Part shown: piece after piece, positions 3,938-55,691 of the stretch
How positions within the stretch are numbered: position 1 is the stretch's first letter
Layout of the letters: each line of letters starts with the position of its first letter
DNA from: Candidatus Bathyarchaeia archaeon
Lineage (GTDB): Archaea; Thermoproteota; Bathyarchaeia; 40CM-2-53-6
DNA length: 64,000 nucleotides
Reading direction: 5' to 3'
NCBI GenBank assembly: GCA_049513715.1
Contig: JBEKVV010000001.1
Span: 736,001 to 800,000 of the forward strand
Position numbers and translations under genes: made by a program
Notes under the pieces: generated by a model
What the model was told of the DNA's origin: nothing
Seen by the model: the letters and a program-made list of their open reading frames with translations, nothing else
The model's database searches: none

Positions 3938-4015
3938 GGGCGGGTAGCCTAGCCTGGATAGGGCACAGGCCTCCGGAGCCTGAGGTCGGGGGTTCGAATC
4001 CCTCCCCGCCCGCCA
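3938..4015 (+). tRNA. tRNA-Arg(CCG), intronless, CCA encoded
   Basis: GGGCGGG/CCCGCCC acceptor stem, CAGGC-CTCCGGA-GCCTG anticodon arm, GGTTCGAATCC T-arm; TATA-like TATAAG near 3895; divergent from argS. Confidence 0.97.
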
Positions 4016-10941: not shown

Positions 10942-11087
10942 TGGAGCCGGGGATGGGAATTGAACCCACATCAGCGAACGCTGCTTCTATACTGCGGGTT
11001 GCGGCAAGCTTGTATCTACTGCAGCCCGCCGCCTGAACCGTTCGGCCTTCGGTGATCCTTAGGCAAGGCCAAAGGACCAACCCCGGC
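10942..11087 (-). tRNA. tRNA-Cys(GCA) with three introns (8/9: 11079-11048; 37/38: 11018-11000; 48/49: 10988-10970)
   Basis: Removing three BHB-bounded inserts gives a 76-nt cloverleaf: GCCGGGG TG GCCG AACGGTTC AGGC G GCGGG CTGCAGA CCCGC AGTAT GTGGG TTCAATT CCCAT CCCCGGC T CCA. It has the U73 discriminator and an A15-U48 pair. Confidence 0.9.
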
Positions 11088-52716: not shown

Positions 52717-53493
52717 CTAGGACTTGGCGCGGCTGGAACTCTGATGATACTGCAGACTCGGAAACGCTGCTTTGCACGCCGCCACAACGGGCGGCGTTAG
52801 CAGAATCAAGAATGGGATCTCGGAAAGGTACGTGAAGGCTGTAGTTGCGTACATGAAGGCCGTTGGCAGCGCACCATTGCCGAGCCCTAGCACGCCTGGC
52901 AGTGTGAAGATTGTGCTGTAACCTACAATCCCAAGGCCAATGATGATGCTTCCAACGCCGAGCCCGATTGAGGAGGCAACCTCAAAGTCAGCCCACCGAT
53001 TTCGTTTCACCGTGAACCCGAGTATCACGATTACGGCCAGCAGACCTACAAAGGAGACGAGAAATTGCGGGCTTCCGAAGCCCCCGGTTCCAGACAGTAA
53101 GTATACGCCGTAGGCAGTTAGGACAATTGGAATGAGAAGACTCAATCCCAACAGGACACGTTTCACTGCTGCGGACGGGTTTCTGTGCGTCAACCAGCCG
53201 ATTAGAAAGAACCCGACGAAATTCGAAGGAACACCTACTAGGAGACTTAGGAGTGGATCATGATGGCCGTAGAAAACGTCGGCAATGAATATTCCAATTG
53301 CGGCTCCGACTCCTCCGGTCCATGGCCCGAAGAGGACGCTAAAGGCTGCGGGGACGAACACTTGAGGCCAGAACCGAACCCCAAAGACCGTCACGGGGAA
53401 AACGGTCCATAGAAGCCCAATGAGCGCATAGAGTGCGGCGTTTACGACTGTAGTTGCCAACCGCAACGACGCGGGGAGAGTTTTGGTTGCCAA
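52717..53493 (-). CDS. ECF transporter S component
   Basis: AALYA, VRFWP, LFGPW.GG.GAAIG.FI.D, G.P.NF pattern. Confidence 0.8.
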   Translation of the reverse strand: MATKTLPASLRLATTVVNAALYALIGLLWTVFPVTVFGVRFWPQVFVPAAFSVLFGPWTGGVGAAIGIFIADVFYGHHDPLLSLLVGVPSNFVGFFLIGWLTHRNPSAAVKRVLLGLSLLIPIVLTAYGVYLLSGTGGFGSPQFLVSFVGLLAVIVILGFTVKRNRWADFEVASSIGLGVGSIIIGLGIVGYSTIFTLPGVLGLGNGALPTAFMYATTAFTYLSEIPFLILLTPPVVAACKAAFPSLQYHQSSSRAKS

Positions 53494-53790
53494 GATGATT
53501 CCCCCCGGAGATATTTCGTTTGACTATTCTAAGCTTGCCCTGAGGATTTGTATGCGAGGGTCGCCTACTACGAGCCATCTTTGAGAGTGCTTTGCGTGCT
53601 CTCTAGAATTCAGGCAACGCTTCATTTGCAGGCAGCATCAAAGCCGACGAAAAGTAACAGCCCAACAGAACAGACGAAGAGGGACAATTATCATGTTATC
53701 CAGATTGGGGGTTGGAGTCGCGGCAATTCCAGCGCGTCGTGGCCTCAACGAAACGTTAAGATACGGTGGTTAGTGGGCATTAGCGCTTGT

Positions 53791-53953
53791 AGCCCGGTGG
53801 TGTAGTGGTCAAACCAGCAAATGGGACTATGCATAGCAATGGCGCCAGAATAGAACTGCCACTAAACGGCTCTGGATCCCCTCCACCAAAAGGAGAAACC
53901 TGCCGACGGGAGAACAACCAAAAACCCGAATTCGAATCTCCCCCGGGCTACCA
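53791..53953 (+). tRNA. tRNA-Gln(CTG) with four introns (21/22: 53813-53830; 29/30: 53839-53867; 37/38: 53876-53897; 53/54: 53913-53930)
   Basis: The spliced product is a 76-nt cloverleaf: AGCCCGG TG GTGT AGTGGTCAA GCAT A GCAGG CTCTGGA CCTGC CGAC GGGAG TTCGAAT CTCCC CCGGGCT A CCA. It has A1-U72 and G15-C48 pairs; TATA-like TTAAGA near 53756. Confidence 0.93.
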
Positions 53954-54152
53954 ACAACCATTGTAAATATCTTCGGTCGGGGTACCATTGAGTTCAGATT
54001 GAAAGTCTCCAATGTGAGATGAAGCTTACGAGTCACCATTCCTGAAGAAAAACACAGCCTAAGGCACCCACCGTCAATTAATCATGGGCCGAACCGGATC
54101 CTCTAAGGGTGCCATACACCTATGCTGGCCCTGCATCATCTAAAAACACGTT

Positions 54153-55691
54153 TCATTCCAGGGAACCAATAGCTTTCTCCACTTCCACAAGGATTTCGCA
54201 TGACTTCACGAGTTCCTTCATCTTGTTGTGATCGGGATGAAGCGGGCGGTCGATGTCGAGATACTTGACGTGTTTACGGATCACATTATGAGCAACTTGT
54301 GTTCCCTTTCCGAATTCGTATGGTGTTTCATATTTTTTACGTAAGTCAAGGGCTTGGGCAGCGGCCATGAATTCAATTCCCAAAATGCCATAAGCATTGT
54401 CGAGTATCTGGAAATTCTTCAGGGCGGTGTTCATGCCCATGGAAACGAAATCTTCCTGGTCGGCAGCAGCCGGGATCGACTGCATGGAGGCCGGCATGCA
54501 AAGGATTCGCTGTTCTACGATCTGCATATCAGCGGTATATTGGCTTAACATTAGCCCGGAGAACATGCCGGCGCCCTTAATCAGGAAGGGCGGAAGCCCC
54601 ACGCTGAGTGCCGGGTTATTCAGGCGGTTCATGCGGCGTTCAGAAAGTACGCTTACCATTGTTACTGCAACACCTATCATATCCATAGGCAAGGCAATGG
54701 GCGAGCCCTGGAAATTGGCGCCTGAGAGTACCAAGTTTTCATCCGGGAAGAAAAGAGGATTATCCCCCACACCATTGAGTTCGATCTCTACCTGTACTCT
54801 GGCAAAGCCAAGCGCATCATGTGCTGCACCAATCACCTGCGGTGTGGAACGCATTGAATATGCATCCTGCACTTTCACTTTTAGACGGCCTTCAGATAGG
54901 TCACCGCCAGCTGCTACCGTGCGGATTGATTTTGCACTGCGGACGCCACCGGGGAAACCGCGTACTTCAAGAATTAATCCATGATACGGTTTGAGGTTGG
55001 CTTTCAGCGCCTCCAGCGACATGGCACAGGCTATTTCAGCCTGCTTAAGCCAGTTGTTGGTGTCATATATCATCAGCGCCGACATGGCGGTAAGTACATT
55101 GGAACCATTGATAACGGCCAGACCATCGCGTACCTCCAGTCCGGGAATGGAGATACCTGCGCGTTCCATGGCCACATGGCCGTCCAGAAATTCACTCTTG
55201 TAATAGGCATGCCCTTCACCCATCATAAGCAAAGCAATCTGCGACATGGGTGCTAAATCACCGCAAGCACCCACCGACCCTTTGGTGCATACATAGGGCG
55301 TAACACCCTTGTTCAACATATCCACTAAAGTTTGGGTAATCGCCAGGCGGCAACCGGAATTCCCGTGTGCATGAACGTTGATACGCGCCAGCATCGCACC
55401 ACGTACCCAGTCAATGGGCATGGGATCGCCTATGCCTGCAGCATGATTGTAAATCAAATACCTCTGAAAATCCTTTACCTGATCATCGTTGAGCACTATC
55501 TCCGAAAATTCGCCTATACCAGTATTGACACCGTACATGATCTCATGGGCTTCAACTTTTTTCTCAAGCATCGCGCGGCACGAATTGATCCTTTTAATGG
55601 AATCGGGATGCAGTTCCACTTTTTCGTCATGACGTGCAACGCGTACAACGTCTTCAATGGTCAATCCTGAACCACTGATCACCAGTGTCAT
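54153..55691 (-). CDS. Aromatic amino acid ammonia-lyase (HAL/PAL family), ACG-type MIO motif
   Basis: YGVNTG.G, GSVGACGDLAP, NG, QDAYSMR..PQV.G, DNP, QED.VSMG. Confidence 0.93.
   Translation of the reverse strand: MTLVISGSGLTIEDVVRVARHDEKVELHPDSIKRINSCRAMLEKKVEAHEIMYGVNTGIGEFSEIVLNDDQVKDFQRYLIYNHAAGIGDPMPIDWVRGAMLARINVHAHGNSGCRLAITQTLVDMLNKGVTPYVCTKGSVGACGDLAPMSQIALLMMGEGHAYYKSEFLDGHVAMERAGISIPGLEVRDGLAVINGSNVLTAMSALMIYDTNNWLKQAEIACAMSLEALKANLKPYHGLILEVRGFPGGVRSAKSIRTVAAGGDLSEGRLKVKVQDAYSMRSTPQVIGAAHDALGFARVQVEIELNGVGDNPLFFPDENLVLSGANFQGSPIALPMDMIGVAVTMVSVLSERRMNRLNNPALSVGLPPFLIKGAGMFSGLMLSQYTADMQIVEQRILCMPASMQSIPAAADQEDFVSMGMNTALKNFQILDNAYGILGIEFMAAAQALDLRKKYETPYEFGKGTQVAHNVIRKHVKYLDIDRPLHPDHNKMKELVKSCEILVEVEKAIGSLE

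What the first reader, a model, noticed from the sequence alone, without database searches (positions are those of the whole stretch)
53791..53953. tRNA-Gln(CTG) gene interrupted by four introns
Seen: exons of 22, 8, 8, 15 and 23 nt join into an exact 76-nt tRNA-Gln with the archaeal A1-U72 identity pair. Each intron has BHB or relaxed-BHB geometry: 21/22 GGTC-AA^A-CCA..TGG-GACT-AT^G; 29/30 GC-ATAG-CA^A-TGGC..GCCA-CTAA-AC^G-GC; 37/38 CTCT-GG^A...GGAG-AA^A-CC; 53/54 CGA-CGGG-AG^A...CCCG-AA^T-TCG. Knowledge: the archaeal multi-intron tRNAs I know (e.g. Thermofilum pendens) have at most three. Neighbouring motifs share the 8-nt micro-exons, so splicing is probably ordered and needs a broad-specificity EndA. 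Standard annotation would probably miss this gene.
Basis: partly seen in the sequence, partly recalled or inferred. Interest (0 to 1): 0.92.

Follow-up and report, generated by a model that had tools for sequence, protein, structure and literature searches.

The report
Four-intron glutamine tRNA gene, Bathyarchaeia
This is a real glutamine tRNA gene of an uncultured soil/peat archaeon that is cut into five pieces (two of them only 8 bases long) by four tiny protein-spliced introns, one more than reviews give as the archaeal maximum, and that ordinary tRNA finders miss.

Summary
Confirmed. Window 53791-53953 (+) holds five exons (22, 8, 8, 15, 23 nt). Joined, they give a 76-nt tRNA-Gln(CUG) with all 21 stem pairs, A1-U72 and an encoded CCA. 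ARAGORN and Rfam miss the unspliced gene.

It knows only cloverleaf rules and bulge-helix-bulge (BHB) geometry.

Of 45 related loci, 22 hold distinct orthologues. Exons are almost invariant and introns vary; 20 have four introns and 2 have three. Every intron has two 3-nt bulges around a 4-position helix, and the inner helices covary.

The genome (Bathyarchaeia) encodes a two-subunit, crenarchaeal-type splicing endonuclease with the broad-specificity loop, plus RtcB ligase. It is the only CUG copy; the UUG paralogue has two introns.

Reviews state a maximum of three introns, and I found no report of four. No RNA data were available.

The kind is known; the number and the lineage are new. The same genome's initiator tRNA also has four. 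This scan earlier noted a four-intron initiator tRNA in a Woesearchaeota genome.

The parts
53747..53763 (+). Putative BRE/TATA promoter element, ending 27 nt before the mature 5' end
   Evidence: The same element (ending in TTAAGATA) sits at the same distance in 17 of 17 distinct upstream sequences of the genus. The 7 rows from the sister genus have other A/T-rich boxes there. Its role as a promoter is inferred.
53791..53812 (+). Exon 1 (22 nt): acceptor 5' strand, U8, D-stem 5' strand, D-loop up to position 21
   Evidence: Invariant apart from one D-loop T/C in 22 orthologues.
53813..53830 (+). Intron 1 (18 nt) at 21/22. BHB with a 4-bp central helix, a 3-bp inner helix and no outer helix.
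   Evidence: The inner helix covaries (CCA/TGG, CCAC/GTGG, CTC/GAG, CAG/TTG). This intron is absent from L031 and L035, and is replaced by a 10/11 intron in L019 and L020.
53831..53838 (+). Exon 2 (8-nt micro-exon): D-stem 3' strand, position 26, anticodon-stem positions 27-29
   Evidence: Invariant in 22 orthologues. It runs on without a break from exon 1 in sister genera.
53839..53867 (+). Intron 2 (29 nt) at 29/30. Relaxed BHB: central helix 3 of 4 pairs, inner helix 5 bp, outer helix 2-3 bp.
   Evidence: The positions after the first intron base (TGGCGCCAGA) are invariant in 22 orthologues. They can pair with the anticodon loop of exon 3.
53868..53875 (+). Exon 3 (8-nt micro-exon): anticodon-stem positions 30-31 and loop positions 32-37, including the anticodon CTG
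   Evidence: Invariant in 22 orthologues.
53876..53897 (+). Intron 3 (22 nt) at the canonical 37/38 position. 4-bp central helix; the outer helix is the anticodon stem (2 bp before intron 2 is removed, 5 bp after).
   Evidence: Present in every CUG orthologue examined.
53898..53912 (+). Exon 4 (15 nt): position 38, anticodon-stem 3' strand, 4-nt variable loop, T-stem 5' strand
53913..53930 (+). Intron 4 (18 nt) at 53/54. 4-bp central helix, 3-bp outer helix, and no inner helix in this copy.
   Evidence: Inner helices are present and covary in relatives. Five orthologues have a 59/60 intron instead.
53931..53953 (+). Exon 5 (23 nt): T-loop, T-stem 3' strand, acceptor 3' strand, discriminator A73, encoded CCA
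   Evidence: CCA is encoded at nearly all tRNA genes of this genome.

Best explanation
This is the single functional gene for tRNA-Gln(CUG) of a Bathyarchaeia archaeon. It is transcribed from its own promoter as a precursor of about 165-170 nt.

Four short introns (18, 29, 22 and 18 nt) lie at positions 21/22, 29/30, 37/38 and 53/54. Each folds with its flanking exon into a bulge-helix-bulge or relaxed BHB motif. The cell's heterotetramer-type (alpha-beta)2 splicing endonuclease cuts in the two 3-nt bulges, and RtcB ligase joins the exons.

The BHBs of introns 2 and 3 use the same bases of the 8-nt exon 3, so they cannot form together. Splicing is therefore probably stepwise: intron 4 at any time, and intron 3 (the canonical one) after intron 2.

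Shown here: the gene anatomy, BHB geometry, conservation pattern, presence of the enzymes, and single-copy status. Inferred: transcription, actual splicing and the order of splicing.
For: - The joined exons form a perfect tRNA-Gln(ctg).
- The cloverleaf-plus-BHB search gives a unique solution.
- There are 22 distinct orthologous sequences among 45 loci. Exons are almost invariant and introns differ in length and sequence. 20 have four introns and 2 have three.
- All introns in all 22 show 3-nt bulges and a 4-position central helix. That helix pairs fully in all 20 intron-1 and all 22 intron-4 cases, and in 16 of 22 intron-3 cases. Inner helices change on both sides.
- Every exon junction exists uninterrupted in a natural homologue. 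Junctions 1 and 4 are continuous in sister genera. Junctions 2 and 3 are continuous in the UUG paralogue of the same genome.
- A promoter-like box lies at a fixed distance in 17 of 17 genus members.
- EndA alpha (186 aa) matches the A. pernix catalytic subunit at E = 2.5e-41, including the broad-specificity loop. Its K39 and K41 align with K44 and R46. A second EndA-like gene (192 aa) lacks the catalytic His region. RtcB scores 578 bits.
- There is no second CUG gene. BLAST of the joined sequence finds only its own exons and the UUG paralogue, and ARAGORN's other 'Gln(ctg)' call is spurious.
- Folding favours intron 4 first in 18 of 20 orthologues, and intron 3 is eased after intron 2 in 19 of 20.
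Against: - There is no RNA evidence of any kind.
- Intron 2's central helix is imperfect: 3 of 4 pairs in 17 orthologues and only 2 of 4 in 5. It relies on a strong inner helix.
- In this copy, introns 3 and 4 have almost no inner helix and intron 1 has no outer helix. All four are therefore relaxed forms, and their cleavage by this enzyme is assumed from A. pernix work.
- My search assumes BHB geometry, so 'unique solution' holds only under that model.
- One orthologue (L010) has three extra bases in the T-loop region and did not parse.
- The genome is a metagenome bin with 8.8% estimated contamination. However, the gene, the UUG paralogue and EndA alpha all lie on the same 896-kb contig.
- The predicted dependence of intron 2 on removal of intron 1 holds in only 8 of 20 orthologues.
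- tRNAscan-SE was not run.
Confidence: 0.9

Rival explanations
1. It is a decaying pseudogene. The gene has been riddled with insertions and is no longer used, and CAG codons are read by tRNA-Gln(UUG).
For: A UUG paralogue with only two introns exists in the same genome. No expression data exist.
Against: - Exons are almost invariant in 22 diverged orthologues while the introns drift.
- BHB pairing is kept through compensatory changes.
- The promoter box is conserved.
- The gene is kept in all families of the order that I sampled.
Confidence: 0.03
2. The gene is real, but the intron map is partly wrong: fewer introns, shifted boundaries, or a nested intron pair.
For: - With relaxed rules my search lists alternative maps in some orthologues, for example L013 and L018.
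- The 37/38 boundary could shift by one base without changing the product, as the sequence shows.
Against: - In the window copy only one map exists, under both strict and relaxed rules.
- The alternative maps in relatives give non-conserved or poorer mature sequences, while one shared mature sequence explains all 22.
- Homologues with continuous junctions fix every join.
Confidence: 0.05
3. It is a chance assembly: a tRNA-like product obtained by picking pieces from unrelated sequence.
For: Relaxed BHB rules are permissive. The reversed-genome control still gave a few formal solutions.
Against: None of the control solutions was accepted by ARAGORN or looked like a tRNA. The locus is conserved in more than 30 genomes.
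Confidence: 0.01

Closest known systems
Multiple-intron tRNA genes of Thermoproteales (Pyrobaculum, Thermofilum, Caldivirga). Work of Sugahara et al., as cited in PMC4033280 and PMC8450103 (passages read).
   Same: Short BHB or relaxed-BHB introns at canonical and non-canonical positions. A host with an (alpha-beta)2 EndA. Neighbouring introns so close that one must go before the next motif forms.
   Different: Those papers give three introns as the maximum; this gene has four. The host here is a mesophilic soil/peat Bathyarchaeia, not a hyperthermophilic crenarchaeon. Two exons are only 8 nt long.
Nuclear tRNA genes of the red alga Cyanidioschyzon merolae (PMC3728597, passages read)
   Same: Up to three ectopic BHB introns per gene. 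RT-PCR showed ordered removal: the outer introns go before the 37/38 intron. This matches the order predicted here.
   Different: A eukaryotic nucleus and at most three introns. Order was shown experimentally there and is only predicted here.
Aeropyrum pernix EndA with the Crenarchaea-specific loop (PMC3241643, abstract and passages read; PDB 3P1Z)
   Same: The alpha subunit here aligns over 179 residues at E = 2.5e-41. The loop is present, with positive residues at the K44 and R46 positions. A separate non-catalytic subunit gene exists.
   Different: The beta subunit here is most similar to M. jannaschii and M. kandleri type sequences, not to the A. pernix beta. Activity and specificity are untested.
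Four-intron initiator tRNA in a Woesearchaeota genome
   Same: Four BHB introns in one tRNA gene, missed by standard finders.
   Different: A different tRNA, phylum and, probably, endonuclease type. It is not a publication.

Membership tests
Archaeal tRNA gene with BHB (protein-spliced) introns | Exons are colinear and join into a canonical cloverleaf | tested here: met
   ARAGORN reads the full length as tRNA-Gln(ctg). 21 of 21 stem pairs form.
Archaeal tRNA gene with BHB (protein-spliced) introns | Each exon-intron pair forms two 3-nt bulges separated by a 4-bp helix, or a relaxed form with one flanking helix | tested here: met
   Introns 1, 3 and 4 have 4 of 4 central pairs. Intron 2 has 3 of 4, with a 5-bp inner and a 2-3-bp outer helix. 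All eight cuts fall after the second bulge base.
Archaeal tRNA gene with BHB (protein-spliced) introns | The host encodes a splicing endonuclease able to cut non-canonical or relaxed motifs ((alpha-beta)2 or epsilon2 type) | tested here: met
   Two EndA-family genes. The alpha has the Crenarchaea-specific loop. The second lacks the catalytic His region. Assembly into a heterotetramer is inferred.
Archaeal tRNA gene with BHB (protein-spliced) introns | An RtcB-type ligase is present | tested here: met
   PF01139 at 578 bits, at C2:140350-141660.
Archaeal tRNA gene with BHB (protein-spliced) introns | The spliced product is seen in RNA | not testable with these tools
   No RNA run was listed.
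Archaeal tRNA-Gln (GatDE pathway) | Anticodon CUG or UUG, and an A1-U72 first pair | tested here: met
   A1-U72 as a GatDE element: PMC2943598 passage. The tRNA-Glu of this genome starts G1-C72.
Split or permuted tRNA genes | Pieces lie at separate loci or in permuted order | tested here: not met
   All five exons are in order within 163 nt.
Self-splicing group I or II introns | A catalytic RNA core of hundreds of nt | tested here: not met
   The introns are 18-29 nt. There is no Rfam intron family hit in the window.

The most novel reading that the evidence does not exclude
The four introns form an obligate, self-timed splicing pathway in which the intron load turns over by exchange between isoacceptor genes.

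First, the invariant segment of intron 2 (TGGCGCCAGA) pairs with the anticodon loop. This would hold the canonical intron's BHB closed until intron 2 is excised, so the anticodon is exposed last.

Second, introns move between the CUG and UUG glutamine genes by gene conversion. In one genome both paralogues share the same derived T-stem pair. CUG genes with a 59/60 intron carry the type of intron that the UUG genes have. The D-arm intron sits at 10/11, at 21/22, or is absent within one family.

If this is right, the family would be a natural series for testing how tRNA introns are gained, shifted and lost.
Probability: 0.25. Interest if true: 0.7.

Novelty: new member of a known kind. Interest (0 to 1): 0.52.

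Why it matters
It raises the documented ceiling for introns in one tRNA gene from three to four. It also shows that heavy tRNA-intron proliferation, so far described for Thermoproteales, occurs in mesophilic soil and peat Bathyarchaeia.

In this genome only 18 tRNA genes reach Rfam's threshold, although the bin is 99% complete. tRNA counts used to judge the quality of such genomes will therefore be badly underestimated.

The 8-nt micro-exons and mutually exclusive BHBs give a compact substrate for testing ordered splicing by an (alpha-beta)2 endonuclease. The within-family variation in intron positions (10/11, 21/22 or none; 53/54 or 59/60) gives dated steps of intron gain, loss or shift.

Tried and rejected
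- **RNA evidence.** The look-up of sequencing runs listed no RNA holder for window 53000-54700.
- **First search script.** The first two genome-wide runs timed out. I rewrote the script with stricter anchors. A bug in a length check then hid many tRNAs and was fixed.
- **tRNA census.** It remains partial: about 27 tRNA genes were rebuilt. Genes with introns in the acceptor stem, or without an intact 5' or 3' end exon, are not found.
- **Possible five-intron genes.** Two leucine tRNA loci gave formal 4-6-intron solutions. By comparison with the Leu(GAG) gene they are better read as three-intron genes. I did not confirm this with relatives.
- **ARAGORN's second 'tRNA-Gln(ctg)'** at C1:468231-468435 is not tRNA-like.
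- **RNAalifold on 13 orthologues**. It recovered the acceptor and T stems and intron 1's motif. It preferred an alternative pairing of intron 2 with exons 3 and 4 over the BHBs of introns 2 and 3. All those columns are invariant, so it neither supports nor refutes that pairing.
- **Collection scan hits in bacterial records.** Four of the 25 hits carry bacterial titles. Two hold no such gene (L027, L029). Two hold the archaeal gene itself (L028, L034).
- **Literature.** Searches for 'four introns' with tRNA, archaea or splicing endonuclease, and for Bathyarchaeia tRNA introns, found nothing relevant. Subscription journals, SPLITSdb and GtRNAdb could not be searched.

Full report
**Observation.** A script that cut the five exons by coordinate and joined them gave 76 nt. 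ARAGORN calls this tRNA-Gln(ctg) over its full length, with a 7-bp acceptor stem starting A1-U72, a 9-nt D-loop, a 4-nt variable loop, a standard T-arm, discriminator A73 and an encoded CCA. ARAGORN and the Rfam tRNA model find only one tRNA in the unspliced window, an Arg(CCG) gene at 3938-4015. They miss this gene. Even at E <= 10, the genome-wide Rfam search has no hit here.

**Independent recovery.** I wrote a depth-first search. It starts from an acceptor-stem pair followed by CCA and walks through the cloverleaf. The cloverleaf rules are U8, A14, GG in the D-loop, U33, R37, G53, T54, C56, A58, C61, and at most one mismatch per stem. At any step the search may jump over an intron whose ends fit BHB geometry: a 4-position central helix, 3-nt bulges, and an inner or outer helix.

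Genome-wide runs gave the following:
- The strict run rebuilt 22 ARAGORN-confirmed tRNAs from 29 loci with a solution, out of 1094 anchors.
- The relaxed run on doubly anchored candidates gave 19 confirmed from 22 loci, out of 48 anchors.
- The relaxed-anchor control on the reversed genome gave 0 confirmed from 20 anchors.
- An earlier strict control gave formal solutions at 2 of 815 anchors, neither tRNA-like.

**Host.** The window is C1:736001-800000 of a 2.79-Mb, 11-contig genome, estimated 99.4% complete and 8.8% contaminated. A collection scan with a 19-base pattern spanning the exon 2-intron 2 junction found 25 stretches of DNA. Of these, 21 are titled Bathyarchaeota, Bathyarchaeia or archaeon, from soil and peat projects. 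Only 18 tRNA genes reach Rfam's threshold in the whole genome, which fits a heavily interrupted tRNA set.

**Orthologues within the family.** A DNA search of 61 genomes (G000 and 60 relatives) found the whole 163-nt locus at 79-89% identity in 15 same-genus genomes, partly in one more (G001), and in three genomes of a sister genus, over the whole locus in one of them. I parsed 45 loci by exon sequence alone:
- 22 loci held distinct gene sequences.
- 19 were exact duplicates of these.
- 4 did not parse: L010, L045, and two bacterial chance matches.

Exons are almost invariant; the changes are one D-loop T/C and, in L017, position 38 and one compensated T-stem pair. Introns differ in length and sequence. 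The intron maps, given as the number of mature bases before each intron, are:

| Map | Distinct sequences |
|---|---|
| 22, 30, 38, 53 | 13 |
| 22, 30, 38, 59 | 5 |
| 10, 30, 38, 53 | 2 |
| 30, 38, 53 (three introns) | 2 |

So 20 of 22 carry four introns.

**BHB geometry in the orthologues.** For every intron of every orthologue I tabulated the motif implied by those boundaries:
- All show 3-nt bulges at both sites.
- The central helix pairs at 4 of 4 positions in all 20 intron-1 cases and all 22 intron-4 cases.
- It pairs at 4 of 4 in 16 of 22 intron-3 cases and 3 of 4 in the other 6.
- For intron 2 it pairs at 3 of 4 in 17 cases and 2 of 4 in 5. Those 5 have purine-purine mismatches at both ends of the helix.
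- Inner helices change on both sides while staying paired. Intron 1 shows CCA/TGG, CCAC/GTGG, CTC/GAG and CAG/TTG. Intron 4 shows TCGC/GCGA, GGCG/TGCC, GGCT/AGCC and GGTTC/GAACC.

**Across the order.** I fetched 20 further loci and 18 gave a good solution. CUG genes there have:
- two introns (30, 38) in two other genera of the same family;
- three introns in four other families (30, 38, 53; 10, 30, 38; 22, 38, 59);
- four introns (10, 30, 38, 53) in two further families (L048, L056).

Two UUG genes also have four (L049, L059). Four-intron glutamine tRNA genes are therefore spread over several families. The 29/30 intron is found in most CUG genes and the 37/38 intron in all, so these look oldest. 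The D-arm and T-arm introns look later.

These homologues also supply natural continuous versions of each junction. Junctions 1 and 4 are continuous in sister genera. Junctions 2 and 3 are continuous in the UUG paralogue of the same genome.

**Single copy.** BLAST of the joined sequence against the genome finds only its own exons and a paralogue at C1:162587-162700. [quoted passage not shown] ARAGORN's other 'Gln(ctg)' call, with a 111-nt intron, has no tRNA-like arms.

**Transcription signal.** A box ending in TTAAGATA lies 27 nt upstream of the mature 5' end in 17 of 17 distinct upstream sequences of the genus. The 7 sister-genus rows have other A/T-rich boxes at that place. I read this as a BRE/TATA promoter; that is an inference.

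**Enzymes.**
- The Pfam EndA domain hits two genes.
- L021:1462-2022(-) encodes 186 aa. It matches the A. pernix catalytic subunit (3P1Z_B) at E = 2.5e-41 over residues 7-185. The match includes the segment that Hirata et al. call the Crenarchaea-specific loop. Lysines 39 and 41 align with K44 and R46. The role of the loop and of K44 comes from the abstract and passages of PMC3241643.
- L022:1474-2052(-) encodes 192 aa. It is EndA-like but lacks the His-containing catalytic segment in the alignments, as expected of a structural subunit.
- RtcB is present.

This is the (alpha-beta)2 arrangement that papers link to cleavage of non-canonical and relaxed motifs.

**Order of splicing (prediction only).** G31 and C32 of exon 3 are needed by intron 2's outer helix and by intron 3's outer and central helices. 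G22 is both the third bulge base of intron 1 and part of intron 2's outer helix. I used ViennaRNA to compute the cost of forcing each BHB core in the full precursor and in each intermediate:
- In the window copy the costs are 4.2, 6.0, 7.9 and 1.0 kcal/mol for introns 1-4.
- Intron 3 drops to 2.4 kcal/mol when intron 2 is removed.
- Over the 20 four-intron orthologues, intron 4 is the most accessible in 18.
- Intron 3 is eased by more than 1 kcal/mol after intron 2 in 19.
- Intron 2 is eased by removal of intron 1 in only 8.

In C. merolae, RT-PCR showed that the 37/38 intron goes last (PMC3728597). That is the same direction.

**Comparison with what is known.** A 2014 review says multiple-intron tRNAs have 'a maximum of three introns' (PMC4033280). 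[quoted passage not shown] A 2024 review gives no number. My searches found no report of four introns in a tRNA, nor any paper on tRNA introns in Bathyarchaeia. These searches cover open-access papers and bioRxiv only.

Earlier notes of this scan report three-intron Gly, Asn and Tyr tRNA genes and a BHB intron in the EF-2 gene of this same genome. They also report a four-intron initiator tRNA in a Woesearchaeota genome. My search independently rebuilt the Asn and Tyr genes with three introns each.

**Verdict.** The observation and the reading are right. The mechanism is the known archaeal one. What is new is the count (four), the lineage, and the very small shared micro-exons. I rate it a new member of a known kind, of moderate interest.

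Noticed in passing
window 10942-11087 (-): My search and its stem count (20 of 21 pairs) read this as a tRNA-Cys(GCA) gene with three introns, after mature bases 8, 37 and 48. Rfam sees only a sub-threshold piece (19.6 bits).
   Followed up: partly
G000 C1:172732-172880 (-), outside the window: The initiator tRNA-Met gene also has four introns (17, 12, 22 and 22 nt; about 29/30, 37/38, 47/48, 59/60). The spliced product has 21 of 21 stem pairs and a typical initiator anticodon stem. The glutamine gene is therefore not unique in this genome.
   Followed up: partly
window 53840-53849 (intron 2, positions 2-11): Ten intron bases (TGGCGCCAGA) are invariant in all 22 orthologues while the rest of the intron drifts. 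CCAGA is complementary to TCTGG of the anticodon loop. RNAalifold prefers that pairing in the unspliced precursor. A CAGA-containing loop recurs in 29/30 introns of some other families but not all. No explanation has been tested.
   Followed up: partly
L017 and L069 (genome G022): Both glutamine tRNA genes of this one genome (CUG and UUG) carry the same derived T-stem pair, A50-U64 instead of G-C. This suggests gene conversion between the isoacceptor genes. That route could carry the 59/60 intron from the UUG gene into the CUG gene.
   Followed up: partly
L028 and L034 (records titled Acidiferrales and Acidoferrum MAGs): These short contigs, filed in bacterial bins, hold the archaeal four-intron gene, identical to L017 and L004. 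They are probably mis-binned Bathyarchaeia contigs.
   Followed up: no
L010 (genome G012): This orthologue has three extra bases (GCC) at the intron 4 / T-loop border and did not parse as a normal gene. It could be a sequencing error, a shifted intron boundary or a damaged copy.
   Followed up: no
L019 and L020, about 30 nt upstream of the gene: In the two orthologues with a 10/11 intron, the leader holds a partial look-alike of the gene's own 5' end (AGCCCAGCCCGGG) and a TTCGAAC motif. This is reminiscent of the 5'-end replacement by mobile cassettes noted earlier in this genome.
   Followed up: no
G000 whole genome: Rebuilt tRNA genes carry 0 to 4 introns. Only Arg(CCG) of those rebuilt has none. 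Three-intron genes include Lys(CTT), Asn(GTT), Tyr(GTA) and probably Leu(TAA) and Leu(CAA). The census is incomplete, at about 27 genes.
   Followed up: partly
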